Shown: positions 22,539-46,952, numbered from the stretch's first letter. The stretch: DNA of 64,000 nucleotides from Candidatus Shapirobacteria bacterium (GCA_030698565.1 JAUYJS010000005.1:10607-74606), one strand, 5' to 3'. Notes: generated from the letters alone by a model not told the origin. Made by a program: numbers and translations.

Positions 22539-23125
22539 TTCTCGGAAATATAAAAAAAATAGATTTTGATTATGTGAGTTTTGATAAAAAAAATAAGAAA
22601 AATAAATTGACAATAATTCCCAATGTTGGCGGAATTGCCAGGGAAATGACTGGTGGTTCACAAATAGGAATTATTTTAAAAAAATTTTTATCTTTAACTC
22701 TTAAAAATAAACTTACTCTTTGTTTGAATAATATTTCTTTTTTACCTCAATTAGCTAAAATGGATTATGCAGTGGGCGTAAAGTTGTTGTGTGAATTAGA
22801 AATATTGAAAGCCAAGGATGTTAATGTTAAAAAAAATAAATTTATTTTACATAACCAAATGGTAGATATGGCTTTGGCTTTAAATAACAAAAAGGTGTTT
22901 ATTAATTATTTTTATTTATCTAAAAAATATTGTTTTGATCCTGCTTTAATAACGTACAATATTGGACCATTAATAAAAATGCTTTCATCTCTTCCAAGTA
23001 TTTCGGAAAATTTAACAATCTATACACCAATAAACAAAGATAATTATTTAATGAATCCGGGTTTAGAAGATGTTTCAGACTATTTAAATAAATCTGGAAT
23101 TAATTTTATAAATATTTATGAATAA
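22535..23125 (+). CDS. Hypothetical protein. No family recognised.
   Basis: 196 aa, no TM helix and no recognisable motif. It overlaps the upstream stop and the downstream start, so it is part of the operon. Confidence 0.3.
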   Translation: MILGNIKKIDFDYVSFDKKNKKNKLTIIPNVGGIAREMTGGSQIGIILKKFLSLTLKNKLTLCLNNISFLPQLAKMDYAVGVKLLCELEILKAKDVNVKKNKFILHNQMVDMALALNNKKVFINYFYLSKKYCFDPALITYNIGPLIKMLSSLPSISENLTIYTPINKDNYLMNPGLEDVSDYLNKSGINFINIYE

Positions 23126-24059
23126 AGAAAATACCATTGATCTTAATAAAATAGGTTTAGATTTTCTACGGTGGAGTAAAAAAAATCCCGTAGGTAAAAT
23201 TCCACGAGGTGTATCGAAAGAGGGGGCTGGAGAAAACAGAGTACCTTTTGCGCACTTAGCCAATTCGGTTCCGGTGTATTTGACTTTTCGAGAGATCTTG
23301 AAATTATCAAAACATGAAAGAGCCTTTGTTTTGGATATTGGCTGCGGTACTGGTAGAAATATTTCTTATGTAAAGGAAAGCGTAAAAAAAACCGAATATG
23401 AGTTCTTTGGCGTTGATTATTCAAAATCCTGTATTGACTTTGCACGAAGTCAATATAAAAAACAAGGCGTAACTTTCGTTCAGCATGACGGTAAATATTT
23501 ACCGTTTCCAGATTCTTGTTTTGATTTTGTAGTATCATCCCATGTGCTAGAGCATATAGATAAAGAGGGTGGTATATTTTACTTTAAAGAAATTTCCCGT
23601 ATTTTGAAGAAAGGTGGTGTTGCGATAATTGGGACTCCTAACCGTAAACATTGCCAGGATCTATTTGCAATAAATATAAATGATGATAAACAATACAGGT
23701 TAATATTGCCGCATTTACACGAATATTATTATGATGAATTAAAAAAAATGGTGATTAACTCTTCTATTTTTTCAAAGGTCTCGGTAGATCAGACAGTTAA
23801 TCTAGTTAACAGGAAACTAATGGTTGATTCAATTGAAAAAATTAAGCCAAGAGCTGGTTTTCTGAATAAAATTAAGTATACTATATATACCGTTCTAAGA
23901 AGTAATATAAGACTGCAAGATTTGATGGCAAGAATTGGAACCGAATATATTCTTAAAAGAATGGGTGTTGGTTATAAGGATCTAATAAAGAGTACTTATT
24001 ATATAAAAGATGATGGTAAGGGTGATGGTGACAATTTTATAGTTATTGCAGAAAAATAA
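23118..24059 (+). CDS. Class I SAM-dependent methyltransferase.
   Basis: VLDIGCGTGRN (motif I), FDFVVSSHVLEHI, LKKGGVAII (post-I/II). Confidence 0.8.
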   Translation: MNKENTIDLNKIGLDFLRWSKKNPVGKIPRGVSKEGAGENRVPFAHLANSVPVYLTFREILKLSKHERAFVLDIGCGTGRNISYVKESVKKTEYEFFGVDYSKSCIDFARSQYKKQGVTFVQHDGKYLPFPDSCFDFVVSSHVLEHIDKEGGIFYFKEISRILKKGGVAIIGTPNRKHCQDLFAININDDKQYRLILPHLHEYYYDELKKMVINSSIFSKVSVDQTVNLVNRKLMVDSIEKIKPRAGFLNKIKYTIYTVLRSNIRLQDLMARIGTEYILKRMGVGYKDLIKSTYYIKDDGKGDGDNFIVIAEK

Positions 24060-24061
24060 AT

Positions 24062-25519
24062 CTAGTTTTTTGAAAATAAGATAAAATTGCTTGTTTCTTT
24101 AAGAATTCGATATTCCTTGTTGTTTTTAAATTGGTGTATATATCCAAATTGTTCTTTTTCTGTCAAAGGCCAATAATTATTATCTTTACCCAACAACAGA
24201 TATTTTACCTTGTCATAATAAACTGGAAAAATGTATAAATTTTGTCTGTTAGTTAAATGGCCAGATATATAATCTTGAGTAGACACGGGTGAATTTTCGG
24301 GGATTAATTTGATCATGTCGTCCATTTCCCTATCTAATGGAGTGTAAAAACTTTGAAGTAATAGGTGAAAGTTTAATTTTGGAGAAGTAAATTTTTTATA
24401 ACCCGTATACATAAAAATAACTACTATAAATAGTATTATGAAATTATAATTAATATTAAATATTTTTTTAGAAATTTTACTAAAATTATTAATTCCTAAA
24501 ATTACTGCATAAATAAAAAAAGGTATACTTAAAGATTCATAGTGCATGGTAGTTGATTTTAAAAGTAAATCGGTGGAGAGAAGATTGGCTGATAAGGCAC
24601 TAAGACCAACTAAAGTAATCAATGGAGCAAAAAAGAAAAAAGGAAAAATGGGAAAAAATAATTTTGATAAATAACTTATATTTTGACTCGTAAATACACT
24701 TTTAAAAAATAAAACAGGATTTTTAATTGAATTTACAATAATATTAAAAATTGAGCTGCCAAGAGGATTGCCATAAATACTCTCAAAAATATAAGTATGA
24801 TAATTTGAAAGTTGGGGTATAAAAACTTTTATTGTCAAAAAAAAGTAGACCAAACTTATTAGGGCTGTGGTTATCCCCCTTCTTTTGTTTTTTGAGGTCA
24901 AAATTAAATATAGACCAAAGAAAAAGGCAGTAATGGCTACATTTTCTTGAACTAGTAGGAAAAGAGCTAGGGAAATATAATAAAACTTTTGATTTAATTT
25001 TTCATTTGCATAAATGAGTAATAAACCAAAAAAAATTGACAAGGAAAATGCGTGAAATTCACTAAGTACCGCTGAAACCGAAGTAAAATAAGTGAGAAAT
25101 AGTGTTTGGATAATTATGGCTATATAAAAGTTTTTTAATTTATCTTTGGCCAATAAAAAAACTATAAATCCACCTAGTGCCGTTAGAAGTGACTGAATTA
25201 TTAAAAGTGTTTGAGGGACAGGGAAAATATAATAAAAAGGTACAAATAAAAAAATAATCGGATTAAAGTGTATACCGAAAACATTGCTGTTGGTGGGGAT
25301 CTCCATATTTCTATCCCCCCAAAAATTGTGAATACTGTAATTGAATGTATTTTGCATCGGTCGACCATGCACCGTATTCCACATAGCCTGGGCAAAATTA
25401 GTTAAATCTCCCCTGGTCCTGTGGGCATTATATAACTCAATTGATTGAGTAAAATATGCTATAAAAAAAACTAAACACAAACCTAGGCTAATTAAATATA
25501 AATAATATTTTTTTTTCAT
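24062..25519 (-). CDS. Polytopic membrane protein, DUF2079-like (GT-C clan candidate).
   Basis: 11 or more TM helices. The first extracytoplasmic loop RTRGDLTNFAQAMWNTVHGRP...FGIHFNPI resembles the DUF2079 N-terminal signature. The family call is from memory. Confidence 0.45.
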   Translation of the reverse strand: MKKKYYLYLISLGLCLVFFIAYFTQSIELYNAHRTRGDLTNFAQAMWNTVHGRPMQNTFNYSIHNFWGDRNMEIPTNSNVFGIHFNPIIFLFVPFYYIFPVPQTLLIIQSLLTALGGFIVFLLAKDKLKNFYIAIIIQTLFLTYFTSVSAVLSEFHAFSLSIFFGLLLIYANEKLNQKFYYISLALFLLVQENVAITAFFFGLYLILTSKNKRRGITTALISLVYFFLTIKVFIPQLSNYHTYIFESIYGNPLGSSIFNIIVNSIKNPVLFFKSVFTSQNISYLSKLFFPIFPFFFFAPLITLVGLSALSANLLSTDLLLKSTTMHYESLSIPFFIYAVILGINNFSKISKKIFNINYNFIILFIVVIFMYTGYKKFTSPKLNFHLLLQSFYTPLDREMDDMIKLIPENSPVSTQDYISGHLTNRQNLYIFPVYYDKVKYLLLGKDNNYWPLTEKEQFGYIHQFKNNKEYRILKETSNFILFSKN

Positions 25520-27489
25520 TTTTTATTTTCGTAAATTAAGTAATTTTGATCTTGATAAACCGGTTTAATATTTTTTAATTTTGTTAAAACAAAATCTTGG
25601 CAATAATTATTGGATAATTCGATGGGATTGTTGGTGATTATGTAATCAAAACTACTAAGGGTATCACTATAATAGTTGCTGTTGGTTTTAAAAAAATTTT
25701 GCCAACCGATCCAATACCAATTACATTGGTGTGTTTGAGCAGAAAAATTGACACGTGGAAGAATATGTTTAGATGCATCTAAAACCTTTTTATGGACATT
25801 ATTTTGGGTTGATTTATTAATAAAAACAATTGGTCCATTGTCAGCGTTTGGTTGGTTGTAGTATTCTGGTTGAAAAAATTGTTTCGTATATAAAGGGAAA
25901 GCTCTGAAATATTTATACGTGTTAAATATGTTGAAAATAATTATGATTGTGGAAAGAGGTATGATATATTTTTGAAATCTAGATAAATTAAGTTTAGAAA
26001 TGTAAATAACCGTTACTAGCGCCAATATAAATTGATAAGGCCATACGTATCGGTAATATCGAGTCACTATTCCTACGGCAAAGTAGGCAATAAAACTATA
26101 AAGAAAAATAATTTGGATTTGCTCAAACTTTTGTCGTTTTACAATTTGGATTGCAAGTTTAACGAGGATTACTAAAAAAATAATCGCAAACAGGATATAG
26201 GCTAAGGTGGTATAACCAGGAGTTGCTTCTAAAAATGAACTAGACTTAATGAAAGTTAAGAGTGGGTATGTGACAAAGCCCCCCGTAATCCATTGATATT
26301 TATTAAGTGTTGTCTGAATCATAAAATTATTTTCCAAAATATCATTCGGCGCCCAAATTTTTGGAGTTGGAAATAAGTATTGAGCGAAAGGAAAGACGGG
26401 ACTACCAGTAAAACTGTAAGTTCTAAAAAGCCAAATGGTTAAAGGAAAAAGGAAAATAAAAGAAATTAATGCAAAGTTTTTTAGTGTTAAATGAACTTTT
26501 GATAGACAAACTATTATTAGTGGTAAAAAGAAAAAAACCAATGGGAAGTATTTCATGCCCGAGGCAAAACCGAAAAGAAAGGACGAAAAGTAAACCAAAT
26601 AAATATTTGGTTTTTCTAAATAGAGATAGCAAAAGTAAATAGAGATAAGACAGATTACTAATAAAAGCAAATCATAATATCCATTTGAGGATTGAAAAAT
26701 AACAATGGGTGTAAGAAGGATGGTGTAAGACAGGACTTGCAGTGAGGTACTCAAATTAAATTTTTTGAATATTTCTTTTAAAAAATAAATAAGTAATATT
26801 AATGGAAATACAAAGGAAAATTGAAAACCCCTTAGCCCCCCTATCTGATAAAAGAAACTAAAAAAACCAATTCCGTTTTGAGGAAATAATGAAGAAATAC
26901 TTTCTAAAATTGGCGCGAAAGAATTGTTGAGTATATACCATTTGGCATTATACAAATTAGCCATAACTGCATCCCAGTGGTATTGAGGTTGAGAACTAAT
27001 TATAAAACTCAAATTAATTATAAAAAGATCGATAATATTGAGTTTTATAATAAATTGAATTAAGTTTTTATGTATCTGTGTTGGAATCTTTTTATTTAAT
27101 TTAAATTTGTAGAAGATAGAGATAAATAAAACAGAACAGATAAAAATAAGCGATAGCTTGGGATTTAAAATTAAGCCGGCCACTATATAAACTTCTATGA
27201 GTAAAATAAAAAGACCAAATGAAAGTAGTAATTTACTTTTAAAATCGGGAAATATTTTATAAGAAATAAAATTGAGAGTATAAAAGATAAATATTAGAAA
27301 TAAAGAAAATGAAAATCGAAAATAAACGAAAAACAATAAAAATAAGCAAGTAATAATTACTGTTTTATATTTTTTATGCCAAGAAGCTGTCTTAATTAAA
27401 AATAATTCAATAAGAGTAAAAAAGAATGACAGATAAAAAATATATATGACACTATTGGGATGAATTAGTTTTGAAATTAACTGGATCAT
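25516..27489 (-). CDS. Large polytopic membrane protein (657 aa, 15 or more TM helices). It is a putative GT-C-type glycosyltransferase of unassigned family.
   Basis: Hydrophobicity pattern only. The C-terminal roughly 120 aa are hydrophilic. No definitive motif. Confidence 0.35.
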   Translation of the reverse strand: MIQLISKLIHPNSVIYIFYLSFFFTLIELFLIKTASWHKKYKTVIITCLFLLFFVYFRFSFSLFLIFIFYTLNFISYKIFPDFKSKLLLSFGLFILLIEVYIVAGLILNPKLSLIFICSVLFISIFYKFKLNKKIPTQIHKNLIQFIIKLNIIDLFIINLSFIISSQPQYHWDAVMANLYNAKWYILNNSFAPILESISSLFPQNGIGFFSFFYQIGGLRGFQFSFVFPLILLIYFLKEIFKKFNLSTSLQVLSYTILLTPIVIFQSSNGYYDLLLLVICLISIYFCYLYLEKPNIYLVYFSSFLFGFASGMKYFPLVFFFLPLIIVCLSKVHLTLKNFALISFIFLFPLTIWLFRTYSFTGSPVFPFAQYLFPTPKIWAPNDILENNFMIQTTLNKYQWITGGFVTYPLLTFIKSSSFLEATPGYTTLAYILFAIIFLVILVKLAIQIVKRQKFEQIQIIFLYSFIAYFAVGIVTRYYRYVWPYQFILALVTVIYISKLNLSRFQKYIIPLSTIIIIFNIFNTYKYFRAFPLYTKQFFQPEYYNQPNADNGPIVFINKSTQNNVHKKVLDASKHILPRVNFSAQTHQCNWYWIGWQNFFKTNSNYYSDTLSSFDYIITNNPIELSNNYCQDFVLTKLKNIKPVYQDQNYLIYENKK

Positions 27490-27491
27490 AA

Positions 27492-28487
27492 TTACTTCTT
27501 TGAATATATTCCAAAAAATGTTTCTGGTTTTAAAATATTGTTTTCCAGATAGTACTTATCTAAGTTAACAATAAAGTCGAAGATTGATCGGTCTAGTGCT
27601 TGTCTTAGATCAAAATTGGGGCCAAATTTGGTGTCGAAAAATCTGCGACAAAGCGAAAAGGCTGGGATGTAATAAACCTCATTTAAGTGTTTTCTTAGGG
27701 ACGGAAGTATGGCTTCAGAATTGATACATTCAAATGAATTAATGGAATAATCGACATTCTCATAAGTTTCGGCGTAAACAGGATCGGCGTGTTTAGTATA
27801 ATCAATTTTAAATTTAGGAGGTAATATTTTCCAGATATTATTAACAACTTTAAATGTTTCGTCCCACATTAAATAACCATTTTTAGTTGGAATGTCTACG
27901 GTTACAAAAATACCACCTGGTTTTAAACTTTTATTAATTTCTTTACAGATATGATCAAGTTTAAGAAAGTGATGTAGTGAGGCGTGGGCAAGAATGACAT
28001 CATATTTATTTTCAGGAAGGGAGATTTTATTTACGTCTTGAGTGATAGCATTAAACTTTATATTTTGTTTTTTAGCTTCGTTTTCGCCTTGTTTTAGGGC
28101 TGATTCATTTATATCGACACAAGATAACTCCAGTTCAGTGCCGTTCTTTTTGAGAAGTGGGGCAATTCCTAGAAGTTCTAAACCACATGCTCCTGATCCT
28201 AGACCTAATAATTTAATTTTTTTCTTATTTTTTGTGTGTCGACTAATATATTCATTTAGACTTGAAACACCGGTTTTTTTTTTGATATTTTCCACAAAAT
28301 GGATATCGGTGTCAGTCCAAACTGGTGGAACATCTTGAAATAATTTATCTTTAAAAATATTTTTATAATGTTCTATTTCCCCTTCCATTTTTTGAGAATA
28401 ATTTTTATTATTCTCTTTTCGCTTTTTATCTGACAATTGGTTGGTTAAGGATTTGAACAATTTTTTCAGACGAGTCACCTGTTCCAT
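27492..28487 (-). CDS. Class I SAM-dependent methyltransferase.
   Basis: LLGLGSGACGLELL, VILAHASLHHF, LKPGGIFV. The true start is probably an internal Met (MEGEIEHY), which would reduce the 62-bp overlap with wecB. Confidence 0.75.
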   Translation of the reverse strand: MEQVTRLKKLFKSLTNQLSDKKRKENNKNYSQKMEGEIEHYKNIFKDKLFQDVPPVWTDTDIHFVENIKKKTGVSSLNEYISRHTKNKKKIKLLGLGSGACGLELLGIAPLLKKNGTELELSCVDINESALKQGENEAKKQNIKFNAITQDVNKISLPENKYDVILAHASLHHFLKLDHICKEINKSLKPGGIFVTVDIPTKNGYLMWDETFKVVNNIWKILPPKFKIDYTKHADPVYAETYENVDYSINSFECINSEAILPSLRKHLNEVYYIPAFSLCRRFFDTKFGPNFDLRQALDRSIFDFIVNLDKYYLENNILKPETFFGIYSKK

Positions 28488-29538
28488 AGGGATTGTTTGA
28501 TTTTGAAATTTTTAAATAATGTTTTTTATTTTCTAAAACATCTTTTATATTTTTATATATTTTATCTTTTTTAGTGCCTACTAAAATTAGTGTCCCTGCC
28601 TTAATCCCCTCTTGTCTTTCAGTTTCGTCTCTTAAAACCAGGACTGGTTTGTGAAATGTAGGAGCTTCTTCTTGAAGTCCTCCAGAATCGGTAGCAACCA
28701 AGAAGCATTGACTCATTAATTTAACCATATCTGTGTAAATTAATGGCTTAGTTAAATATATTCTATTATGGTTACTTAGTATTTTTTTGGCAATGTCTTG
28801 AATAAGTGGATTTAGATGAACGGAAAAAATTACTTGAGTGTCGGGGTAATCAATAATTATATTTTTTATAGCTTGAAAAATATCTTTCATGGGTTTGCCA
28901 ATAGATTCGCGGCGATGACAAGTTAGGAGAATAGTTTTTTTACTAAAATCTATGGTTTTTAATATTGGTTCTTGATAACCAATATTTTTTTGAGCAATAA
29001 ATTTAATGGCATCGATGACAGTATTGCCTGTAACAAAAATATTATCCTTTATATTTTCTTTTAATAAGTTATTTTTATTGTTTTGAGTTGGACAAAAATA
29101 AATATTGGATAATTTATCTACAAGTTGACGATTAATTTCTTCGGGGAATGGGTTTTGATTGTCGTATGTTCTTAACCCTGCTTCAATATGACCAATGGGG
29201 ATGTGTAGGTAAAATCCTGCTAAGGCAGAAACAAATGCAGTGGTGGTGTCACCGTGGACTAAAATTAAATCCGGTTTTTCGGTTTCAAATATTTTTTGAA
29301 TCTTTGATAATACTTTTTGGGTAATATCGAAAAGTGTTTGGTTTTGAGTCATAATATCCAGATCATAATCTGGTTTTATATTAAAAATGTCCAAGACTTG
29401 GTCGAGCATTTCTCGGTGTTGGGCGGTAGCAACTACAATTGTTTGAATTTTGGTTTTTCTTAAAGCCATAATAATTGGAGCCATCTTTATAGCTTCGGGT
29501 CGAGTACCAAAAACACAGATTATTTTTTTGTATTTCAT
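28426..29538 (-). CDS. wecB: UDP-N-acetylglucosamine 2-epimerase (non-hydrolysing).
   Basis: KIICVFGTRPEAIKMAPII, HIEAGLRT, 370 aa. Confidence 0.85.
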   Translation of the reverse strand: MKYKKIICVFGTRPEAIKMAPIIMALRKTKIQTIVVATAQHREMLDQVLDIFNIKPDYDLDIMTQNQTLFDITQKVLSKIQKIFETEKPDLILVHGDTTTAFVSALAGFYLHIPIGHIEAGLRTYDNQNPFPEEINRQLVDKLSNIYFCPTQNNKNNLLKENIKDNIFVTGNTVIDAIKFIAQKNIGYQEPILKTIDFSKKTILLTCHRRESIGKPMKDIFQAIKNIIIDYPDTQVIFSVHLNPLIQDIAKKILSNHNRIYLTKPLIYTDMVKLMSQCFLVATDSGGLQEEAPTFHKPVLVLRDETERQEGIKAGTLILVGTKKDKIYKNIKDVLENKKHYLKISKSNNPYGTGDSSEKIVQILNQPIVR

Positions 29539-33998: not shown

Positions 33999-33999
33999 A

Positions 34000-35726: not shown

Positions 35727-36248
35727 TTATTTCCCGCGGGAATGCCTCTCTTTTTCTTTTTTAATTTGTAACTTTTCTTTGGCAATATTGAGTGGAAAAA
35801 TATGACTGGCATATTTTCTTAGTAATGATGAATATTTTTGATTTGGAACAATCACTTTCGCTAGTTTATGGTTTTTTTCTAAATATTCAACAAGGCAATA
35901 AAAATCACCGTCTCCTGAAACGATTATTGCTTGATTGTAGTGTGGATATTCAATCATGGCATGTAAGACTAATTCAGCATCTACATTGCCTTTGACAGTA
36001 GTTTTATCATCTTTTTTAACTTCCAAAACATGCTTAAAAATTAAAATATATCCAACTTCTTGTAAGTAATGATAAAGGCTTGAGTTTCCTTCGATATAAC
36101 CAATAAAAAGATACGTTTTTTTAACTTTGAATTTATTTAATAAATATGTTCTAAATTTACCAAAATCAAGTTTCCATCCGTTGAGTTGAGTACCTAAATT
36201 AAGATTTTGACTGTCGATGAAAGCATATGTAAGAGTATTGGACTTCAT
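35727..36248 (-). CDS. NYN-domain protein (LabA/PIN-like nuclease fold, COG1432).
   Basis: AFIDSQNL near the N-terminus, GNVDAELVLHAM, VSGDGDFYCLVEYL. 173 aa. Confidence 0.7.
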   Translation of the reverse strand: MKSNTLTYAFIDSQNLNLGTQLNGWKLDFGKFRTYLLNKFKVKKTYLFIGYIEGNSSLYHYLQEVGYILIFKHVLEVKKDDKTTVKGNVDAELVLHAMIEYPHYNQAIIVSGDGDFYCLVEYLEKNHKLAKVIVPNQKYSSLLRKYASHIFPLNIAKEKLQIKKEKERHSRGK

Positions 36249-36260
36249 TTTTTGTATGTT

Positions 36261-38079: not shown

Positions 38080-38085
38080 GTATTT

Positions 38086-40538: not shown

Positions 40539-40542
40539 GTCT

Positions 40543-41787
40543 TTAGTAGTTATAGTGTTTAATTTTAATAATTTGTTTGGAATAGTACCAGGAAAATACG
40601 ATAGCTGGAATTATCGGTACCATCATCGAATAAATAATATTTGTCAAACTTTGATGATAAAACAAAATCAGGATAGTCTGAGTTAAAACTGTTATACCAG
40701 AAACAAAAGCAGAAGACGAATTTTGCTGTGATAAAAGAAATTGAATCAGAAAATAAAAAATAGACAAAAAAAACATAAAAATTGATAGTAATGGCAACAT
40801 ATTTGCTGCAGCAATGAATTTGGTACCAAAAAGAAGACTGAGGATTAATGAAGGGTATAAACTATAGATCAACACAAATCCTGCGCAGACCAGTACAATG
40901 AACATCATACCGGTTAATAAAAGTTTATTAAGGTGTCTTTTATTGTCGTTTTGGTTAAATAATGGATAGTATACAATTAGAATTGCGGTTGAAAAAAAGA
41001 AAATTATTTTACTTACTAAAGAAATGGCCGCATAGCTACCAGCGGACGATTCAGATAGAAAATATCGAGCAATAATTGTATCTTGATTAATAATAATTGT
41101 TAGAAAAAAATTTGTTACAAGGCTAAGAAATGAAAATGAGGCCAATTTTTTTAAGGATACAGAAAATTGTTTGGCTGTATTCTTAGACAATTGTCTGTTG
41201 ATAATTATTGCTGAGATTATAGCGGTGAAAGCGTAAGATAGGCTGAGCGAAAGATTGGAAACAATGTCTGAAAATCCAAGATGAAAAAAAATAAATATAA
41301 AGAATATTTTGGATAAAGAAAAAAAAATGCCCAACAATAGAAAAGTAAATATTTTAAATTGAGCCTGCAAAATAGATTGATAAAAAATCAGATAAAATGA
41401 TGAGATTATTTGAATAAGAAATAATAGGTAAATAAAAAAATTTTCGTTTTTAAGTATTGAATTAAAAACTGGATACCCGATACTTAATATAAGAGTTAGC
41501 ACAAAAGACATGGCAATTAGTTTATTTTGAAAAAATAGAATAATGCTGGAAATTTTTTTGGGTGAATTATGTGTGATCTGATTAATTATTACAGGACCAA
41601 TGGCACCTGTTAAAACACTAGTAATGGCAAATAAGCCAATGAAACTTTCTAACTGTCCAAAATTATTTACGCTAAGAATCTTGCCACTTAGGAAATGGAA
41701 AAGGTAATTTAAAATAGCTGCAATCATATTGCCAAATAAAGCTATTAAAGTTAATTTGTTTGTTTTTGAAAATAAATTAAATTTCAT
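40543..41787 (-). CDS. Polysaccharide biosynthesis (Wzx-like, MOP superfamily) flippase candidate.
   Basis: 414 aa with about 12 TM helices. The N-terminal LIALFGNMIAAILNYLFHFLSGKILSVNNFGQLESF is like Wzx/RfbX N-termini. Confidence 0.5.
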   Translation of the reverse strand: MKFNLFSKTNKLTLIALFGNMIAAILNYLFHFLSGKILSVNNFGQLESFIGLFAITSVLTGAIGPVIINQITHNSPKKISSIILFFQNKLIAMSFVLTLILSIGYPVFNSILKNENFFIYLLFLIQIISSFYLIFYQSILQAQFKIFTFLLLGIFFSLSKIFFIFIFFHLGFSDIVSNLSLSLSYAFTAIISAIIINRQLSKNTAKQFSVSLKKLASFSFLSLVTNFFLTIIINQDTIIARYFLSESSAGSYAAISLVSKIIFFFSTAILIVYYPLFNQNDNKRHLNKLLLTGMMFIVLVCAGFVLIYSLYPSLILSLLFGTKFIAAANMLPLLSIFMFFLSIFYFLIQFLLSQQNSSSAFVSGITVLTQTILILFYHQSLTNIIYSMMVPIIPAIVFSWYYSKQIIKIKHYNY

Positions 41788-42929
41788 AAAATATTCACTA
41801 AAGTTCTGTATTCGAGAGCGGCAATGTGTTTCCAGCTATATTTATCTATCATTTTTTTGTCAATGATATTATGGTAGTCACCTGATTTTAGGGTTTTTAT
41901 TAATACTCTTGCTACTGAATTAGTATCGCCAATTTGAAAGCGGTATATTTCATTATTTTTATAAATATTATTGTAAGCCGGAAGATCGTAGGCAAAAGCT
42001 TTTAGTCCACAACAGACAGCTTCAAGAAGGGCGACTCCAAAACTTTCACTTTTGCTTTTACTTAAGAAGATAAATGTTTTAGAGCTTTTAATAAGTTTGA
42101 ACTTTTCGATACCGTCAATAAATCCAAGTAAAATAATATTTTTAGTTAATCTCATTTGTTTGATCCTATGACGAAATTTTGTTTCCGTAGGCTTATCACC
42201 CTTGCCTATAATAGCTAATTTAAATTTTGGGTATTCTATTTTAATCTTACTTACTACATCTAACATATCAAAAATACCTTTGGTTTCGTTGATTCGCCCG
42301 ATATATATTGAATCATATTTCAAAGTGTTTGGTGCAATTGTTTTTTTAATCAAATCTCCTTCAACGGCGTTTCCAGTGATAGTAACTTTGTTTAGGCTAA
42401 ATCCGTGGGTTATTAGGTAATTTTTGAGTTCTGGAGAAATAGCAAAAATATTATCGGTTTTTTTTAGTAAGAGTAGACTAATATGAAAAAAAAGCCAGGC
42501 CAGAAAACGGATTAATTTAGGTCCTGGGTCATTTAAAGGAACTATGTTGTCGAAGACAGCAACCCATTTAATGTGTTTATCAATAAGTTTTAAAGCGAAC
42601 GGTAATATACAAAGATCAAGTACGGAAAGGCTGTAAACATAATCATATTTTTGGAATTTAATAGAATTTAATAAACCGATAATCTTGATATTTCTTTTTA
42701 ATGATTCTTTCAAAAATTCTGTTTTAGTAAATGCTTCCCGAGTATTTTTGATGATCAAGAAATTGAAATTAGAATTTGGGCTTAATCTATTGATCTTATT
42801 TTTTACTTTTGTGCTGCTACAAATAACTATTGTTAACCCCTGTTTTTGATAATAAAGGCATTTTAAAATTGTAGGTGTAAGGTTGGCAGATTCCGGGGTG
42901 GTTACTAAATTAATTAGTATTTTTTTCAT
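41784..42929 (-). CDS. Glycosyltransferase, GT4.
   Basis: ESFGVALLEAVCCGLKAFAYDLPAYNNIY. Confidence 0.7.
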   Translation of the reverse strand: MKKILINLVTTPESANLTPTILKCLYYQKQGLTIVICSSTKVKNKINRLSPNSNFNFLIIKNTREAFTKTEFLKESLKRNIKIIGLLNSIKFQKYDYVYSLSVLDLCILPFALKLIDKHIKWVAVFDNIVPLNDPGPKLIRFLAWLFFHISLLLLKKTDNIFAISPELKNYLITHGFSLNKVTITGNAVEGDLIKKTIAPNTLKYDSIYIGRINETKGIFDMLDVVSKIKIEYPKFKLAIIGKGDKPTETKFRHRIKQMRLTKNIILLGFIDGIEKFKLIKSSKTFIFLSKSKSESFGVALLEAVCCGLKAFAYDLPAYNNIYKNNEIYRFQIGDTNSVARVLIKTLKSGDYHNIIDKKMIDKYSWKHIAALEYRTLVNIL

Positions 42930-43584
42930 TATTTTTTACACAAACAAATATTAGGTTGTAACCCAATATTGATCCAAAGAAAGGTAATAGTTTGATTAGA
43001 CCACCAAAACGGTTGGACGAATACTTGATTTTGTTTATTTTAAGTCCAGAGGATTCGATTAGCTTTTTGGCTGTACTGACTGTATAAAGATGCATGTGAG
43101 TATTGTCGAGAATTCCACATCGAGTATAATTAAACCGGCCCAATAGTAAATTGATTCTGATTGACAGATGAGCAACATTTGGTAAAGAAATAATTACCTT
43201 GCCTCTAGTTTTCAAAGATTTAATTAAAATCTTTAATACTTTTTTAGGAAAATTTAGGTGTTCTAAAATATCAGCAAAAACTAAAATGTCAAAGGATTCT
43301 GATGGGAATAATCGGTTTAGCTTGCGAGTATTATTTAGGTTTACGCCTAAATAATTTTTATAACCATTATTTAATACCTTGAGGGCGTATTCGTGGGATT
43401 TATCAATGCCGTATAGGATATTTGACTGGTCTAAAAAATTTTTTAAATAACCGTAATTACAACCGATGTCCAGAATTTTTTTATTTTTGGTAATCTCTTC
43501 TGCAATCAGACGATGTGTGCCATAAGGTAGGGTGTTTGGTCCGTAATTGGTTTGCATATTATATTGTCTGCTTACCGGCAGCAA
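42910..43584 (-). CDS. Class I SAM-dependent methyltransferase.
   Basis: ILDIGCNYGYLKNFL, FDILVFADILEHLNFP, KTRGKVIISLPN. Confidence 0.75.
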   Translation of the reverse strand: MLPVSRQYNMQTNYGPNTLPYGTHRLIAEEITKNKKILDIGCNYGYLKNFLDQSNILYGIDKSHEYALKVLNNGYKNYLGVNLNNTRKLNRLFPSESFDILVFADILEHLNFPKKVLKILIKSLKTRGKVIISLPNVAHLSIRINLLLGRFNYTRCGILDNTHMHLYTVSTAKKLIESSGLKINKIKYSSNRFGGLIKLLPFFGSILGYNLIFVCVKNNEKNTN

Positions 43585-44542: not shown

Positions 44543-44598
44543 TTAACCATTCCACGCCGTTTTTGTATGGGGTATAACAATTAGAACAAATTGGCATT

Positions 44599-45999
44599 TT
44601 ATTTAAGAATGTAGGGTTTTCTGGACGAAACACCTTTAAAAATTAAATATATTAAATCTTTAAAATCATTTTTTATTTTATTAAAAGAAGTGAAGTCTTC
44701 CAAAATTTTTTTAATAATTATTCGTGGTTGAAAATAAAATTTACGATTAATTTCTTGTAATTGTGAATATACATATTTTTTGCTTAGTCCTTTAGGTATA
44801 TAAACTGGATAAATTCCCGTATAACCCTCACCTCTTTTTTTAAGTGCATATTGATTAATATATTTTTGGGAAATTACTTTTTCTTTTTTAGCGATATTGT
44901 ATAAAGGTGACCCTGGAAAAGGAATAGGTATGGATAATCCTAAAACGTTTATTGGAGATTTTAAAATCATTCTTTTAGTATCATCTATTTCCTTCTTGGT
45001 CTCCGAGGGGTGTCCAATCATGAAGTAACAAGCAATTTTTATTTTATATTTTTGGCACCACTCAAAAACTTGATAAATAGTTTGATTGGTAAACAAACCT
45101 TTGTGAATAATTTCTTGCCTAACTCTTTCATTACCAGATTCAATTCCAAAATTTATTTGTTGACAACCAGCCTGACTCATTATTTTTAATAGCTTCTGAT
45201 TTACTAGATCAATTCTAGTATTACATTCCCAATATATTTTTATTTTTTCTTTTATTATTTTTTTGCAAAAATTGGTTACTTTTTTTTGATTTAAGGTAAA
45301 AGTGTCGTCTTGAAAATTAATTTTGCCGTTACAAAACGAATAACAATATTTAATTTCTTTAATTAAATTAGAAACAGATCGATAACGGACGGCTTTACTT
45401 ATGGAGGGGCGACTGCAATAGTAACAATTAAAAGGACAACCTCGAGAAAAAAGCATTGATTCTGGTTGGTTGTACAAAGATCTTTTAATTAACTTTTTGT
45501 CTGGAATAGGTAATTTATCTAAATCGATTGGAATTTGACTGTTTTGAATTTTAGGAATTTTTTTATTTTTAGATAAACTAATGATTGAATCTAAAAATGT
45601 AATTTCTGATTCCCCGGTGATTGCATAATCAAAGAGTTTTGAATGTTTATTTATAAAATCAGGATCAGCACTAATATGAGGACCACCTAAAAAAATAATT
45701 GATTTCGGAAAAACATTTTTTATGTTTTGGGCTAATTCAATGGCTCCTTGTAGTTGAGGAGTCATTGAGGAAATACCAATAATAAATGGTTCCTTTTTTT
45801 TAATTATTGAGATAATTTCGTTTAAATTGATATTTTCTTTACCTATATCAATGATTTCTGAACGGAATTTTTTTTTAGCGTAATAGTTAATATATGAAGA
45901 TAGATATAATAAACCAAGTGGTGGGACGGAAACATCTAGGGATTTTGGGACTCCATTTTGAAAAAAAAGTGGAGGATTAAATAATAATATTTTTTTCAT
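44599..45999 (-). CDS. Cobalamin-binding radical SAM enzyme (class B): an N-terminal B12-binding-like domain and a radical SAM core.
   Basis: SRGCPFNCYYCS (CX3CX2C) at about residue 185. The N-terminal roughly 150 aa are Rossmann-like (IIGISSMTPQLQGAIELAQNIK..FLGGPHIS). 466 aa. Confidence 0.75.
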   Translation of the reverse strand: MKKILLFNPPLFFQNGVPKSLDVSVPPLGLLYLSSYINYYAKKKFRSEIIDIGKENINLNEIISIIKKKEPFIIGISSMTPQLQGAIELAQNIKNVFPKSIIFLGGPHISADPDFINKHSKLFDYAITGESEITFLDSIISLSKNKKIPKIQNSQIPIDLDKLPIPDKKLIKRSLYNQPESMLFSRGCPFNCYYCSRPSISKAVRYRSVSNLIKEIKYCYSFCNGKINFQDDTFTLNQKKVTNFCKKIIKEKIKIYWECNTRIDLVNQKLLKIMSQAGCQQINFGIESGNERVRQEIIHKGLFTNQTIYQVFEWCQKYKIKIACYFMIGHPSETKKEIDDTKRMILKSPINVLGLSIPIPFPGSPLYNIAKKEKVISQKYINQYALKKRGEGYTGIYPVYIPKGLSKKYVYSQLQEINRKFYFQPRIIIKKILEDFTSFNKIKNDFKDLIYLIFKGVSSRKPYILK

Positions 46000-46952
46000 T
46001 TCTTTTGATAAATTGCATTTAATTGGACACCGGTTGAATTATTATTGATGTCTATTTTTTCTATTTTCCACCATAATTTATTACTAATAATACTTGTTTT
46101 TTCTAAAAATAGTTGAAGGAATTTGATTAAATGTCCGTTGTAAAAGTTTGTTTTGAGTTGAAAATTAAATTCTTTTAGAAGTTTGTTTAATTGTTTAATA
46201 GAATAATGTCTTTTGTGACCAATTTTAATATCATTAAAATAATAAAATGGCCAAATAAACGGCCATATTTTTAAATATGTATTAGGAACACAAATATATA
46301 AAAACTTGTTCTTTTTTAAAATATATTTGATCTGATTTATGGCTTTTTTGTCATCTTCTAAGTGTTCAAGTAATGAAATGGCGGATATGTAATCAAAAAT
46401 ATTTTTTTTGAATGGTAGGTTTTGGGCTGATGATACTACAAAAGCGGTTTTACTACCGACATTTTGAATTTCAGCAAAATGTTGAGATTTAATCATGGCT
46501 TCGAGAGAAATATCAACTCCAAAACTTAACCAATTATTTTGTTTGGCGGCCTCAATAACGGTATAGCCTGTGGCTCCACAACCAATATCTAGATAGGTTT
46601 TAATTTTTTTTGAAAATTTTTGTTTAAAAATTCGATTCAACATACTTATTCGCCAGTTTTCGAGTTGATTTTTGTCTTTAAATTGAGAATAATGCTTATC
46701 AAACCAAATTGTTTGTTTTTTTTCTTGTGGATCAAGATTTTTTTTGTTGATTAATACGGGGATATTATTAATTATTGGATATGATTGAGAGCATTTTGGA
46801 CAAGTAAGTTTTTTTGGACTAATTAATTTAAGGTCCTGGTTATTGCAATAAGGACAGGCTAAAAATGTTAACAATTTATTTATTTCCATAGGAGTAATTG
46901 AATTTAATGTGTTTAAGAGTTTGTGAATAAATATAATTTTTATACCAATCAA
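45996..46952 (-). CDS. Class I SAM-dependent methyltransferase with an N-terminal Zn-ribbon (Trm112-like CxxC...CxxC).
   Basis: CPYCNNQDL...CPKCSQSY, then YLDIGCGATGYTVIEAA, DYISAISLLEHLED. The probable true start is the internal Met (MEINKLL, about 46889). Confidence 0.7.
   Translation of the reverse strand: MIGIKIIFIHKLLNTLNSITPMEINKLLTFLACPYCNNQDLKLISPKKLTCPKCSQSYPIINNIPVLINKKNLDPQEKKQTIWFDKHYSQFKDKNQLENWRISMLNRIFKQKFSKKIKTYLDIGCGATGYTVIEAAKQNNWLSFGVDISLEAMIKSQHFAEIQNVGSKTAFVVSSAQNLPFKKNIFDYISAISLLEHLEDDKKAINQIKYILKKNKFLYICVPNTYLKIWPFIWPFYYFNDIKIGHKRHYSIKQLNKLLKEFNFQLKTNFYNGHLIKFLQLFLEKTSIISNKLWWKIEKIDINNNSTGVQLNAIYQKK

What the first reader, a model, noticed from the sequence alone, without database searches (positions are those of the whole stretch)
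23118..46952. Six class I SAM methyltransferases dispersed through the locus, alongside a Wzm/Wzt exporter and GDP-mannose supply
Methyltransferase genes lie at 23118..24059, 27492..28487, 31735..32676, 39861..40538, 42910..43584 and 45996..46952, the last with a Zn-ribbon. In ABC-transporter-dependent O-polysaccharide pathways such as E. coli O8/O9a, polymannan built by GT4 mannosyltransferases is capped by a methyltransferase (WbdD) that sets chain length. Here ManC, many GT4s, Wzm/Wzt and multiple methyltransferases coexist, which suggests a heavily O-methylated, possibly methyl-capped, mannose-rich polymer. The number of methyltransferases is unusually high.
Basis: inference. Interest (0 to 1): 0.5.

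Follow-up and report, generated by a model that had tools for sequence, protein, structure and literature searches.

The report
Methyl-capped glycan locus in CPR bacterium
The six methyltransferase genes are real and sit inside a huge cell-surface sugar-polymer locus of an uncultured Candidatus Shapirobacteria (CPR) bacterium; one looks like a chain-length-setting "capping" enzyme, but the E. coli O8/O9a-style polymannan O-antigen picture does not fit.

Summary
Observation confirmed. All six ORFs at the stated coordinates are class I SAM methyltransferases (Pfam E 1e-14 to 1e-23). MT6 has a Trm112-like Zn-ribbon. Wzm and a 247-aa Wzt without a C-terminal domain are present. ManC exists, but 21 kb from the nearest methyltransferase, in a separate cluster.

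The window comes from a Candidatus Shapirobacteria MAG (Patescibacteria/CPR), a lineage without LPS, so "O-polysaccharide" is the wrong frame. The methyltransferases lie in three different glycosyltransferase operons and are only 23-39% identical to each other.

MT3 (31735-32676) is the key gene:
- It has a methyltransferase domain, a long C-terminal helix and a basic amphipathic tail.
- It overlaps a dual-domain polymerase-like GT.
- Its family (about 6,800 cluster representatives) lies next to Wzm/Wzt and multi-domain GTs, or is fused to them.
- In 4 of 5 homologue contexts outside the Shapirobacteria-like clade (one a named cyanobacterium), the partner Wzt carries the Wzt_C carbohydrate-binding domain. 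In the window and its close relatives it never does.

MT3 is therefore a plausible WbdD(O8)/WsaE-like chain terminator by architecture, though not a sequence or fold relative of WbdD. Six methyltransferases is normal for this lineage (0.81 vs 0.05 per 10 kb elsewhere). Polymannan is unsupported; WecB and a CsaB-like pyruvyltransferase point to a ManNAc-containing Gram-positive-type glycan.

The parts
31735..32676 (-). MT3: class I SAM methyltransferase (residues ~20-228) + long C-terminal helix (251-312) with a basic amphipathic tail. Predicted chain-terminating O-methyltransferase.
   Evidence: Pfam. PDB 3cc8 E 5e-33. AF2 pLDDT 86.8, helix 251-312. Heptad pattern and amphipathic tail across the family. 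14-nt overlap with the dual GT. Family contexts and fusions. 100% identical protein annotated in a Ca. Shapirobacteria MAG.
29535..31748 (-). Dual-domain glycosyltransferase (GT-B/GT4-like 326-472 + GT2 482-703), 737 aa. Candidate polymerase of a disaccharide repeat.
   Evidence: Pfam. GT2 part best matches chondroitin/heparosan synthases. 50-56% homologues next to MT3 homologues and Wzm/Wzt in L007, L010, L081, L083. Fused to an MT3-type domain in P0210.
28426..29538 (-). UDP-GlcNAc 2-epimerase (WecB-type): supply of UDP-ManNAc.
   Evidence: Pfam Epimerase_2 E 2.6e-119. Same position in the cassette in L081 and L010.
27492..28487 (-). MT2: class I SAM methyltransferase in the same operon as MT3.
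   Evidence: Pfam. 59% homologue in L010 followed by homologues of the two membrane proteins. A methyltransferase occupies the same slot in L081 and L083.
24062..27489 (-). Two polytopic membrane proteins ending the MT3 operon: a 657-aa unknown (about 11 TM) and DUF2079 (about 10 TM).
   Evidence: Pfam DUF2079 E 2e-63; no family for the 657-aa protein. TM estimate. Homologues at 38-50% in L010 and L083. No hhalign match of the 657-aa protein to the PMT paralogues.
32745..33998 (-). Polysaccharide pyruvyl transferase (CsaB-like), first gene of the MT3 operon.
   Evidence: Pfam PS_pyruv_trans 58 bits (cut-off 25.3). CsaB model 66 bits, below its 213 cut-off.
34036..34935 (+). GT2 glycosyltransferase convergent with Wzt; conserved companion of the cassette.
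   Evidence: Pfam Glyco_tranf_2_4. 49-56% homologues in L007, L081, L083.
34925..35668 (-). Wzt: ABC-transporter nucleotide-binding subunit, NBD only, no Wzt_C carbohydrate-binding domain.
   Evidence: 60-77% homologues of 242-281 aa in 18 Patescibacteria loci. The nearest non-Patescibacteria NBDs (53-56%) carry Wzt_C.
35727..36248 (-). NYN-domain ORF inserted between wzm and wzt; role unknown, probably not part of the pathway.
   Evidence: Pfam NYN E 1.3e-13. Position varies or the gene is absent in relatives.
36261..37061 (-). Wzm: ABC-2 permease.
   Evidence: Pfam ABC2_membrane E 1.9e-15. Galactan Wzm and KpsM models below cut-off.
37102..38079 (+). CofD-family protein of the YvcK (UDP-GlcNAc-binding) type, divergent from wzm.
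   Evidence: Pfam CofD E 3.8e-39. TIGR01826 YvcK 150 bits, below its 196 cut-off. Syntenic in L003, L004, L005, L008, L010, L011, L081.
38086..39828 (+). Membrane GT-C-like domain (about 10 TM, invariant FVSDDYA loop motif) + C-terminal TPR repeats.
   Evidence: TPR Pfam hits. TM estimate. Invariant motif in 8 homologues. hhalign to the window's PMT paralogues 95.3%, E 2e-8.
39861..40538 (-). MT4: 3cc8-type class I methyltransferase without a coiled-coil; last gene of the long minus-strand GT operon.
   Evidence: 72% homologue next to a GT4g homologue and the TPR gene in L003.
40543..41787 (-). Wzx-like (MOP-family) flippase candidate, about 14 TM.
   Evidence: Pfam Polysacc_synt E 7e-5, 22.8 bits, below its 28.2 cut-off. 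TM estimate.
42910..43584 (-). MT5: 3cc8-type class I methyltransferase with a C-terminal hydrophobic segment. Overlaps GT4 and GT2 genes on both sides.
45996..46952 (-). MT6: Trm112-like Zn-ribbon + class I methyltransferase. Overlaps a GT2 gene and a B12-radical SAM gene.
44599..45999 (-). B12-binding radical SAM enzyme 1 (CX3CX2C at residue 188).
   Evidence: Pfam. HpnJ/BchE-like, below cut-offs. Motif.
48922..50415 (-). B12-binding radical SAM enzyme 2 (CX4CX2C variant).
   Evidence: 65-68% homologues in L003 and L004.
23118..24059 (+). MT1: class I methyltransferase, last gene of a plus-strand operon.
19591..23125 (+). Operon upstream of MT1: polyprenyl-phosphate sugar synthase-like GT2 (PpgS/AglJ-like), DUF2304, SDR-epimerase/GFO-oxidoreductase fusion, 196-aa unknown.
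617..15063 (-). Separate left-hand cluster: Bac_transf phosphoglycosyl transferase (617-1291), ManC (1281-2372), six GT4, four GT2, Wzy_C-like protein (6705-8099), hexapeptide acetyltransferase.
54197..63838 (-). Tandem array of PMT/ArnT-like GT-C membrane glycosyltransferase paralogues; the last ORF is a C-terminal two-thirds fragment.
   Evidence: Pfam. hhalign 98.7% for 62564-63838.

Best explanation
The window is part of a very large cell-surface glycan locus (at least 27 glycosyltransferase genes) of an uncultured Candidatus Shapirobacteria bacterium (Patescibacteria/CPR), so the product is a cell-wall or S-layer-type glycan, not LPS. The six SAM methyltransferases are glycan-tailoring enzymes spread over three operons.

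Core pathway (inferred). A polyprenyl-phosphate-linked polymer is built in the cytoplasm by the dual-domain GT at 29535-31748, probably primed by the conserved GT2 at 34036-34935. UDP-ManNAc comes from the WecB-type epimerase. A CsaB-like enzyme adds pyruvate and MT2 adds methyl groups. MT3, which is translationally coupled to the polymerase, adds a methyl group to the non-reducing end and so stops elongation. Its C-terminal helix and basic amphipathic tail hold the catalytic domain at a fixed distance from the membrane-bound polymerase, as in WbdD of E. coli O8 (K. pneumoniae O5), the N-terminal domain of WsaE, and the K. pneumoniae O7 terminator. The finished chain is exported by Wzm/Wzt. 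Because this Wzt has no carbohydrate-binding domain, the cap would set chain length but would not gate export. After export, GT-C enzymes (the TPR-bearing one next to wzm, DUF2079, the tandem PMT-like array) would decorate or transfer glycans, using polyprenyl-phosphate sugars made by the GT2/DUF2304 operon that ends in MT1.

MT4, MT5 and MT6, together with two B12-radical SAM enzymes, sit in a 14-gene GT operon with a Wzx-like flippase. They most likely methylate sugars of a second, heteromeric glycan.

Shown: gene identities, operon layout, synteny, domain architecture, family-wide linkage and fusions. Inferred: substrates, the site of methylation, chain termination and the final acceptor.
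For: Lineage: MT3 is 100% identical to a protein annotated in a Ca. Shapirobacteria MAG. The Wzt relatives at 56-77% identity lie in 18 Patescibacteria-like loci with the same synteny.

Glycan role of the methyltransferases: start/stop overlaps with GT genes and recurrent synteny. MT4 has a 72% homologue beside a GT4g homologue in L003. MT2 has a 59% homologue in L010 with the same membrane proteins. The MT3 -> dual GT -> (WecB) -> MT cassette lies a few kb from Wzm/Wzt in L081, L082 and L083.

MT3 as terminator:
- The AF2 model has a methyltransferase domain, a low-confidence linker and a single 62-residue helix.
- 27 homologues share a heptad-like stretch and a basic amphipathic end. Their length differences fall within the C-terminal linker/helix region, columns about 250-380 of the alignment.
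- In 4 of 5 contexts outside the clade, the MT3 homologue lies beside Wzm plus a Wzt carrying Wzt_C, and beside a 520-864-aa multi-domain GT. One of these contexts is Scytonema sp. HK-05, and one includes a WsaF-like GT.
- The family has 6,797 cluster representatives at E<=1e-30.
- 8 of 9 long members tested are N-terminal MT3-type domains followed by 1-3 GT modules. P0210 has methyltransferase + GT1_4 + GT2 in the same order as the window's two genes.
- A coiled-coil is described as the characteristic marker of terminators in ABC-dependent pathways. WbdD has an N-terminal catalytic part, a coiled-coil ruler, an amphipathic helix and a polymerase-recruiting region (PMC11231755, PMC3482155). 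WsaE has an N-terminal methyltransferase that forms a 2-O-methyl cap in a Gram-positive bacterium (PMC2943079).

ManNAc and pyruvate.
Wzt without a CBM throughout the clade. Its nearest outside relatives have Wzt_C.
GT-C nature of the TPR protein.
Confidence: 0.55

Rival explanations
1. One reading: an E. coli O8/O9a-like polymannan O-polysaccharide. It would be built by GT4 mannosyltransferases from GDP-mannose, capped by a WbdD-type methyltransferase and exported by Wzm/Wzt for ligation to LPS.
For: ManC, eight GT4 genes, Wzm/Wzt and methyltransferases all occur in the window. MT3 has a terminator-like layout.
Against: The organism is a Ca. Shapirobacteria MAG, and CPR genomes lack lipid A/LPS genes (PMC5220378). 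ManC and six GT4 genes lie in a different cluster with a Bac_transf transferase and a Wzy_C protein, 21-32 kb away. The conserved cassette next to Wzm/Wzt contains WecB and a GT4-like+GT2 fusion, not WbdA/B/C-like genes. There is no kinase domain and no specific similarity to WbdD. There is no Wzt_C.
Confidence: 0.05
2. All six methyltransferases, MT3 included, only add internal or side-chain O-methyl (or N-methyl) groups to sugars or nucleotide-sugar precursors. There is no capping or chain-length function. The C-terminal helix of MT3 merely mediates oligomerisation or membrane association, and chain length is set by polymerase-exporter coupling, as in CBM-less systems such as K. pneumoniae O2a (from my own knowledge of Kos et al. 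2009, not re-read here).
For: Wzt lacks a CBM in the whole clade, which is the signature of terminator-independent export. The methyltransferase domains are generic. MT4 and MT5 share the MT3 catalytic family but have no helix. The helix is short.
Against: The methyltransferase + helix + basic-tail layout is conserved over thousands of proteins, with length variation in the C-terminal linker/helix region. The family recurs beside Wzt_C-bearing transporters. It is fused N-terminally to polymerase modules exactly as known terminators are (PMC11231755, PMC2943079).
Confidence: 0.27
3. The ABC transporter is a TagGH-type teichoic-acid exporter, and the methyltransferases are unrelated passengers acting on small molecules, proteins or RNA.
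For: The best NCBIfam scores of Wzt are to teichoic-acid export NBD models (257 and 210 bits). MT6 has the Zn-ribbon + methyltransferase layout also seen in RlmA, and it gives a weak hit to that model (36.7 bits).
Against: Those scores are below the cut-offs (538 and 320). No TagF/TagB/TagD/LicD-type genes were found in any scanned ORF. The NBD is 49-56% identical to Wzt_C-bearing Wzt proteins, against 25-33% for the other non-Patescibacteria loci retrieved by the scan. Every methyltransferase overlaps or abuts GT genes on the same strand, and the synteny is conserved.
Confidence: 0.05

Closest known systems
WbdD chain terminator with WbdA polymerase and Wzm/Wzt (E. coli O8 / K. pneumoniae O5, methyl cap; O9a/O3, methyl-phosphate cap)
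   Same: N-terminal SAM methyltransferase, then an extended helix, then a basic amphipathic C-terminus. The gene is directly coupled to a multi-domain polymerase GT, with Wzm/Wzt nearby (PMC3482155, PMC11231755).
   Different: No kinase domain. The methyltransferase domain is not specifically related to WbdD. The helix is about 60 residues. Wzt has no Wzt_C. The host has no LPS, and the sugars are probably ManNAc-based rather than mannose.
WsaE and the slg (S-layer glycan) clusters of Geobacillus stearothermophilus NRS 2004/3a and Paenibacillus alvei CCM 2051T
   Same: A monoderm-type ABC-transporter-dependent glycan with a terminal O-methyl cap made by a methyltransferase joined to the polymerising GTs. 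A WbaP-type initiating enzyme coexists with Wzm/Wzt. Wzy_C-domain and TPR proteins act in the transfer step. P. alvei has ManNAc-containing repeats and side-branching through a polyprenyl-phosphate sugar (PMC2943079). An MT3 homologue sits beside a WsaF-like GT in L087. Many family members are methyltransferase-GT-GT fusions like WsaE.
   Different: Here the methyltransferase and polymerase are separate, overlapping genes. No S-layer protein gene is in the window. The TPR protein is GT-C/PMT-like, not Wzy_C-like. Identity of the WsaE methyltransferase domain with the MT3 family could not be tested because no sequence was available.
K. pneumoniae O7 ORF6 (methyltransferase-kinase - coiled-coil - two GT2 modules) and O12 WbbB
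   Same: The principle of a terminator at the distal end of a coiled-coil, with polymerase modules on the same protein or a neighbouring one. Orthologues either end after the coiled-coil or continue into GT modules (PMC11231755). The same dichotomy is seen in the MT3 family.
   Different: No kinase-like or CBM-like extra domain is seen in the MT3 model. The cap chemistry is unknown.
PDB 3cc8 (BCE_1332, Bacillus cereus ATCC 10987, putative methyltransferase of unknown function)
   Different: 230 aa with no C-terminal helix. Its function is uncharacterised, and no paper mentioning it was found.
CsaB / pyruvylated ManNAc secondary cell-wall polymers of Bacillus and Paenibacillus
   Same: A pyruvyl transferase and a UDP-GlcNAc 2-epimerase lie in one operon.
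   Different: The CsaB equivalog score is far below its cut-off (66 vs 213). No SLH-domain protein is in the window.

Membership tests
WbdD-type chain-terminating methyltransferase | N-terminal SAM-dependent methyltransferase domain | tested here: met
   MT3 residues about 20-228: Pfam Methyltransf_23 E 3.8e-15; AF2 Rossmann-fold domain.
WbdD-type chain-terminating methyltransferase | Specific sequence or fold relationship of the methyltransferase domain to WbdD (PDB 4AZS family) | tested here: not met
WbdD-type chain-terminating methyltransferase | Kinase domain (O9a/O3 subtype only) | tested here: not met
   No kinase Pfam hit. At 313 aa the protein has no room for one. The O8/O5 subtype does not need it (PMC3482155).
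WbdD-type chain-terminating methyltransferase | Extended C-terminal coiled-coil (molecular ruler) | tested here: inconclusive
   Single helix 251-312 in a monomer AF2 model. Heptad-like pattern in most of the 27 homologues, with indels falling in the C-terminal linker/helix region. The Scytonema homologue hits coiled-coil Pfam models. Oligomeric state was not modelled, and the helix is short.
WbdD-type chain-terminating methyltransferase | Membrane-binding amphipathic helix and polymerase recruitment at the C-terminus | tested here: inconclusive
   Basic amphipathic last 18-25 residues in nearly all homologues, net charge mostly +4 to +8 and +2 in MT3 itself. Polymerase coupling is inferred from the gene overlap and from fusion proteins.
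WbdD-type chain-terminating methyltransferase | Partner Wzt with a carbohydrate-binding Wzt_C domain that reads the cap | tested here: not met
   The window Wzt is 247 aa with no Wzt_C, and the same holds in relatives. The feature is met for MT3 homologues in other lineages.
WbdD-type chain-terminating methyltransferase | Methyl (or methyl-phosphate) group on the non-reducing terminal sugar; chain length depends on the enzyme | not testable with these tools
   Requires glycan chemistry and genetics.
ABC-transporter-dependent (Wzm/Wzt) glycan export | ABC-2 permease plus a cognate NBD in one transcription unit, next to GT genes | tested here: met
   The synteny is conserved in 18 related loci.
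E. coli O8/O9a polymannan O-antigen pathway | GDP-mannose supply and WbdA/B/C-type mannosyltransferases in the same cluster as wzm/wzt/wbdD | tested here: not met
   ManC and six GT4 genes are in the separate 617-15063 cluster with a Bac_transf transferase and a Wzy_C protein. The cassette beside Wzm/Wzt has WecB and a GT4-like+GT2 fusion. Sugar specificity of the GT4s cannot be read from sequence.
E. coli O8/O9a polymannan O-antigen pathway | LPS-producing diderm host (lipid A-core acceptor, WaaL) | tested here: not met
   The host is Ca. Shapirobacteria, and CPR genomes lack lipid A/LPS genes (PMC5220378). No lipid A or core gene is in the window. The rest of the genome was not available.
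Gram-positive S-layer glycan (slg) cluster | Wzm/Wzt + a methyltransferase coupled to polymerising GTs + a WbaP-type initiating transferase | tested here: met
   The description of slg clusters is in PMC2943079. A functional link between the transferase at 617-1291 and the Wzm/Wzt module is not shown.
Gram-positive S-layer glycan (slg) cluster | Wzy_C-domain O-oligosaccharyl transferase and an S-layer protein target | tested here: inconclusive
   The Wzy_C hit at 6705-8099 scores 27.8 bits, below the 31.7 cut-off. No S-layer gene was recognised in the window.
TagGH wall-teichoic-acid exporter | Score above the TagH model cut-off, and linked polyol-phosphate polymer genes (TagF/TagB/TagD) | tested here: not met
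   257 and 210 bits against cut-offs of 538 and 320. No such genes appear in the Pfam scans of the window's ORFs.
CsaB pyruvyl transferase (SCWP pyruvylation) | Score above the TIGR03609 cut-off | tested here: not met
   66 bits against 213. The general Pfam PS_pyruv_trans family is met.

The most novel reading that the evidence does not exclude
In Shapirobacteria-like CPR bacteria, a terminator-type methyltransferase with a short ruler helix has been kept while the cap-reading Wzt_C domain was lost. Chain termination would then be uncoupled from export gating, or the cap would be read by a different, still unknown component. The same lineage decorates its glycans unusually heavily, with six SAM methyltransferases plus two cobalamin-dependent radical SAM enzymes. 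The latter could C-methylate sugars of a cell-surface polymer, a modification I know only from small-molecule pathways.
Probability: 0.2. Interest if true: 0.65.

Novelty: new variant of a known kind. Interest (0 to 1): 0.45.

Why it matters
[quoted passage not shown] These ultra-small bacteria are thought to live attached to hosts, so their surface glycans are likely central to their biology. This locus gives a concrete, testable model: an ABC-transporter-dependent, ManNAc-based, pyruvylated and methyl-terminated polymer. It also identifies a very large uncharacterised family of methyltransferase-plus-helix proteins (about 6,800 cluster representatives) as probable glycan chain terminators across many phyla. 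The lineage-wide absence of the Wzt carbohydrate-binding domain alongside a terminator-like enzyme is a natural experiment on whether termination and export recognition must be coupled. The practical stakes are modest. The components are all known kinds, and nothing here overturns the current framework.

Tried and rejected
1. Classifying the methyltransferases by nearest characterised enzyme. NCBIfam gave only sub-threshold generic hits (UbiG, UbiE, BioC, MetW, etc.). PDB phmmer searches for all six gave only SAM-core matches. This neither supports nor refutes 'sugar O-methyltransferase'.
3. Exact-sequence look-up of Wzt in the assembly collection: not on record.
4. Literature on PDB 3cc8: none found.
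5. Relaxed Pfam scans (E<=5) of the unannotated ORFs (TPR N-terminal domain, 657-aa membrane protein, 196-aa and 182-aa ORFs) to find a stand-alone Wzt_C-like or ligase domain: nothing usable. hhalign of the 657-aa protein against the PMT paralogues: no match.
6. Recent duplication as the source of six methyltransferases: rejected, since pairwise identity is only 23-39% or undetectable.
7. Archaeal or methanogen origin, which I first suspected from the low GC, the CofD hit and the PMT-like genes: rejected. The CofD-family protein is YvcK-like.
8. tRNA and Rfam scans of the window: no hits.
9. The second structure-prediction job and two homologue searches were deliberately not spent on MT1 and MT6, whose roles remain context-based only.

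Full report
**1. The observation**

The ORF map contains all six ORFs at the coordinates given. Each hits several class I SAM-methyltransferase Pfam models above gathering score:
- MT1, 23118-24059(+): E 4.9e-23
- MT2, 27492-28487(-): E 3.5e-14
- MT3, 31735-32676(-): E 3.8e-15
- MT4, 39861-40538(-): E 3.7e-18
- MT5, 42910-43584(-): E 1.1e-14
- MT6, 45996-46952(-): E 3.7e-15

MT6 carries a Trm112p-type Zn-ribbon at residues 26-62, with two CxxC pairs.

Wzm (36261-37061) and a 247-aa Wzt (34925-35668) are present. Wzt has no Wzt_C hit, and its stop codon overlaps a convergent GT2 gene, so no split C-terminal domain can follow it.

ManC is real (1281-2372) but lies outside the flagged span.

The six methyltransferases are only 23-39% identical to one another where they align at all, so they are not recent duplicates. 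The window has no tRNA and no Rfam match.

**2. Whose genome this is**

GC content is about 30% throughout. MT3 is 100% identical to a protein annotated in a Candidatus Shapirobacteria MAG, on a 232-kb contig.

The closest relatives of Wzt (56-77% identity) lie in 18 MAG loci. The informatively titled ones are Ca. Shapirobacteria, Ca. Woesebacteria, Ca. Paceibacterota and 'Patescibacteria group'. Several others have the same synteny but carry implausible titles such as 'uncultured Gammaproteobacteria'; one of these has 'PATE' in its isolate name.

CPR genomes are reported to lack lipid A/LPS genes, and their envelope is called unclear (PMC5220378). The O-antigen frame is therefore inappropriate. 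The right comparison is with glycans of monoderm bacteria.

**3. Anatomy of the window (Pfam and NCBIfam)**

| Region | Strand | Content |
|---|---|---|
| (a) 617-15063 | - | Bac_transf phosphoglycosyl transferase, ManC, six GT4, four GT2, a weak Wzy_C protein, an acetyltransferase |
| (b) 15100-19543 | mixed | LPG_synthase_TM protein, SDR 4,6-dehydratase/epimerase, a radical SAM, a UDP-sugar dehydrogenase |
| (c) 19591-24059 | + | PpgS/AglJ-like polyprenyl-phosphate sugar synthase, DUF2304, SDR/GFO fusion, unknown ORF, MT1 |
| (d) 24062-33998 | - | CsaB-like pyruvyl transferase, MT3, a 737-aa GT4-like+GT2 fusion, WecB-type epimerase, MT2, a 657-aa 11-TM unknown, DUF2079 |
| (e) 34036-34935 | + | A GT2 |
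| (f) 34925-37061 | - | Wzm, a NYN-domain ORF, Wzt |
| (g) 37102-39828 | + | YvcK-like CofD-family protein, then a 10-TM protein with C-terminal TPRs |
| (h) 39861-54200 | - | 14 genes: seven GT2, two GT4, a Wzx-like flippase, MT4, MT5, MT6, two B12-binding radical SAM enzymes |
| (i) 54197-63838 | - | Tandem PMT/ArnT-like GT-C paralogues |

Neighbouring genes in operons (c), (d) and (h) overlap or abut. The window holds at least 27 glycosyltransferase genes. For comparison, a whole Parcubacterium genome was reported to have 20 (PMC5220378).

The TPR protein's membrane domain matches the window's PMT paralogues by profile-profile comparison (95.3%, E 2e-8). It has an invariant FVSDDYA loop motif. 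It is therefore a GT-C-type enzyme with a TPR tail.

**4. What is conserved in relatives**

In the related Patescibacteria loci the recurrent core is TPR/GT-C - YvcK-like - Wzm - Wzt, with variable flanks rich in GT2, GT4, methyltransferases and B12-radical SAM genes.

A second conserved block is MT3 -> dual GT (734-764 aa, 50-56% identical) -> (WecB) -> a methyltransferase -> large membrane protein. The GT2 of region (e) accompanies it, and the block sits a few kb from Wzm/Wzt in L081/L082 (an 837-kb contig) and L083. L010 carries the dual GT, WecB, MT2 and membrane-protein homologues but no detected MT3 homologue.

MT4 has a 72% homologue beside a GT4g homologue and the TPR gene in L003.

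Methyltransferase genes occur at 0.81 per 10 kb in the Patescibacteria Wzt loci, against 0.05 per 10 kb in 62 Wzt/TagH loci of other phyla. B12-radical SAM genes occur at 0.27 against 0. The detector was built from the window's own proteins, so the contrast is overstated to an unknown degree. Still, the window's 0.94 per 10 kb is typical of its lineage.

**5. MT3**

MT3, MT4 and MT5 share a catalytic family whose only solved member is the uncharacterised B. cereus protein 3cc8 (E 5e-33, 1e-15, 1e-19). Only MT3 has a roughly 120-residue C-terminal extension.

With a 27-sequence alignment, AF2 (pLDDT 86.8) gives a methyltransferase domain (1-228), a low-confidence linker and one 62-residue helix (251-312). 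Across the family:
- the extension shows a heptad-like pattern,
- it ends in a basic amphipathic stretch,
- the length differences between homologues fall within the C-terminal linker/helix region.

This is the layout described for WbdD: catalytic part, coiled-coil ruler, membrane-associated amphipathic helix and polymerase-recruiting region. A coiled-coil is called the characteristic marker of terminators in ABC-dependent assembly (PMC11231755, PMC3482155).

Contexts outside the clade agree. In L084, L085 (GC 66%), L086 (Scytonema sp. HK-05) and L087, the MT3 homologue lies beside Wzm, a 395-447-aa Wzt with Wzt_C, and a 520-864-aa multi-domain GT. L087 also has a WsaF-like GT. L088 has the dual GT but no transporter within 8 kb.

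The family is very large: 6,797 representatives at E<=1e-30. Of nine long members tested, eight are N-terminal MT3-type domains followed by one to three GT modules. P0210 reproduces the window's gene order (methyltransferase, GT1_4, GT2) in one polypeptide. That is the architecture of WsaE, whose N-terminal methyltransferase makes the 2-O-methyl cap of the G. stearothermophilus S-layer glycan (PMC2943079), and of the K. pneumoniae O7 terminator-polymerase (PMC11231755).

**6. Wzt**

The NBD-only form is clade-wide. The window's Wzt is 247 aa, and its relatives are 242-281 aa by ORF calling and 246 aa in the called genes of L081 and L083.

Its NCBIfam best scores are to TagH-type models but below their cut-offs (257 vs 538; 210 vs 320). 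No polyol-phosphate polymer genes are present.

By identity it is closest, outside Patescibacteria, to Wzt proteins of two MAGs titled Lachnospiraceae and Oscillospiraceae (53-56%), both of which carry Wzt_C (E 1e-41 to 1e-42). It is also 49-50% identical to the Wzt_C-bearing partners of MT3 homologues. The other non-Patescibacteria hits are at 25-33%.

The simplest reading is loss of the carbohydrate-binding domain in this clade. The canonical 'cap recognised by Wzt' step therefore cannot operate. No substitute domain was found in the window.

**7. Most likely mechanism**

Steps (a) to (c) are inferred from gene content. Steps (d) to (f) are inference by analogy.

(a) A polyprenyl-phosphate-linked primer is extended by the dual GT, using UDP-ManNAc from the WecB-type epimerase and a second sugar.
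(b) The chain is pyruvylated by the CsaB-like enzyme and methylated by MT2.
(c) MT3, docked by its tail near the polymerase, methylates the non-reducing end once the chain reaches the catalytic domain, which stops growth. The short helix predicts short chains.
(d) Wzm/Wzt exports the chain without reading the cap.
(e) Outside the membrane, GT-C enzymes add branches or transfer glycans. They would use polyprenyl-phosphate sugars from the GT2/DUF2304 operon, whose sugar may be modified by the SDR/GFO fusion and MT1, in the manner of three-component systems (PMC11127046; P. alvei side-branching, PMC2943079).
(f) MT4-6 and the two B12-radical SAM enzymes tailor the product of the 14-gene GT operon, which contains a Wzx-like flippase.

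The acceptor (peptidoglycan, lipid or protein) is unknown.

**8. Comparison, novelty and verdict**

The locus works like a Gram-positive slg-type or WbdD(O8)-type ABC-dependent pathway. It is not a member of the WbdD family, not a polymannan O-antigen cluster and not a TagGH teichoic-acid cluster (see the membership table).

New elements:
- the host lineage (CPR),
- a terminator-like methyltransferase paired with a CBM-less Wzt,
- the density of methyltransferases and B12-radical SAM enzymes in these loci.

All parts are known kinds, and the key functional claims are untested. I rate it a new variant of a known kind, of moderate interest (0.45). Confidence in the overall explanation is 0.55.

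Methylation of a glycan and a possible methyl cap stand. Polymannan, O-antigen and a single pathway for all six methyltransferases do not.

Noticed in passing
window 35727-36248 (-): A NYN-domain (PIN-like nuclease fold) ORF sits between wzm and wzt. Homologues lie after wzt in L002 (56%) and upstream of wzm in L005 (48%), and are absent in L003 and L004. The recurrent but positionally variable association with this transporter is unexplained.
   Followed up: partly
window 44599-45999 (-) and 48922-50415 (-): Two B12-binding radical SAM enzymes lie inside a glycosyltransferase operon. They are HpnJ/BchE-like below cut-off; one has CX3CX2C and the other a CX4CX2C variant. Such genes occurred 7 times in 259 kb of Patescibacteria Wzt loci and 0 times in 1067 kb of other phyla. 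They may carry out radical C-methylation or another radical modification of sugars, and they imply a cobalamin requirement in a reduced genome.
   Followed up: partly
window 37102-39828 (+): A YvcK-like (UDP-GlcNAc-binding, CofD-family) protein and a GT-C + TPR membrane protein are transcribed divergently from wzm. One or both genes are conserved at this position in L002-L005, L008-L011 and L081. The GT-C/TPR layout, with its invariant FVSDDYA loop motif, recalls eukaryotic TMTC O-mannosyltransferases (from memory, not tested).
   Followed up: partly
window 54197-63838 (-): A tandem array of five or six PMT/ArnT-like GT-C paralogues (24-31% identical to each other). The last ORF (62564-63838) aligns only to the C-terminal two-thirds of the others (hhalign 98.7%), so it may be truncated or mis-started.
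   Followed up: partly
window 617-15063 (-): A separate cluster with a short Bac_transf phosphoglycosyl transferase, ManC, six GT4, four GT2, a hexapeptide acetyltransferase, DUF192 and a weak Wzy_C protein (6705-8099). The Wzy_C protein could be a polymerase or an O-oligosaccharyl transferase/ligase like WsaB.
   Followed up: no
window 19591-24059 (+): An operon of a PpgS/AglJ-like polyprenyl-phosphate sugar synthase, DUF2304, a 632-aa SDR-epimerase + GFO/IDH/MocA oxidoreductase fusion, a 196-aa ORF with no family, and MT1. This suggests modification of a lipid-linked monosaccharide donor.
   Followed up: no
window 32745-33998 (-) and 28426-29538 (-): A CsaB-like pyruvyl transferase and a UDP-GlcNAc 2-epimerase share one operon. 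This is reminiscent of the pyruvylated ManNAc secondary cell-wall polymers that anchor SLH-domain proteins in Firmicutes. No SLH gene is in the window.
   Followed up: partly
P0121-P0258; P0147, P0152, P0140, P0195, P0200, P0210, P0224: The MT3-type methyltransferase + helix module forms a very large, apparently uncharacterised family (6,797 cluster representatives at E<=1e-30). Many members are fused N-terminally to GT2/GT4/RgpF/WbsX modules.
   Followed up: partly
L001, L005, L009, L013-L016: MAG records titled 'uncultured Gammaproteobacteria' or 'Pseudomonadales' carry loci with Patescibacteria-type synteny, 27-42% GC and 58-74% identical Wzt. Their taxonomic labels look wrong.
   Followed up: no
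window 17096-18163 (+): A 355-aa radical SAM protein (no B12 domain) has a 45% homologue next to a pyruvyl-transferase homologue in L004. Function unknown.
   Followed up: no
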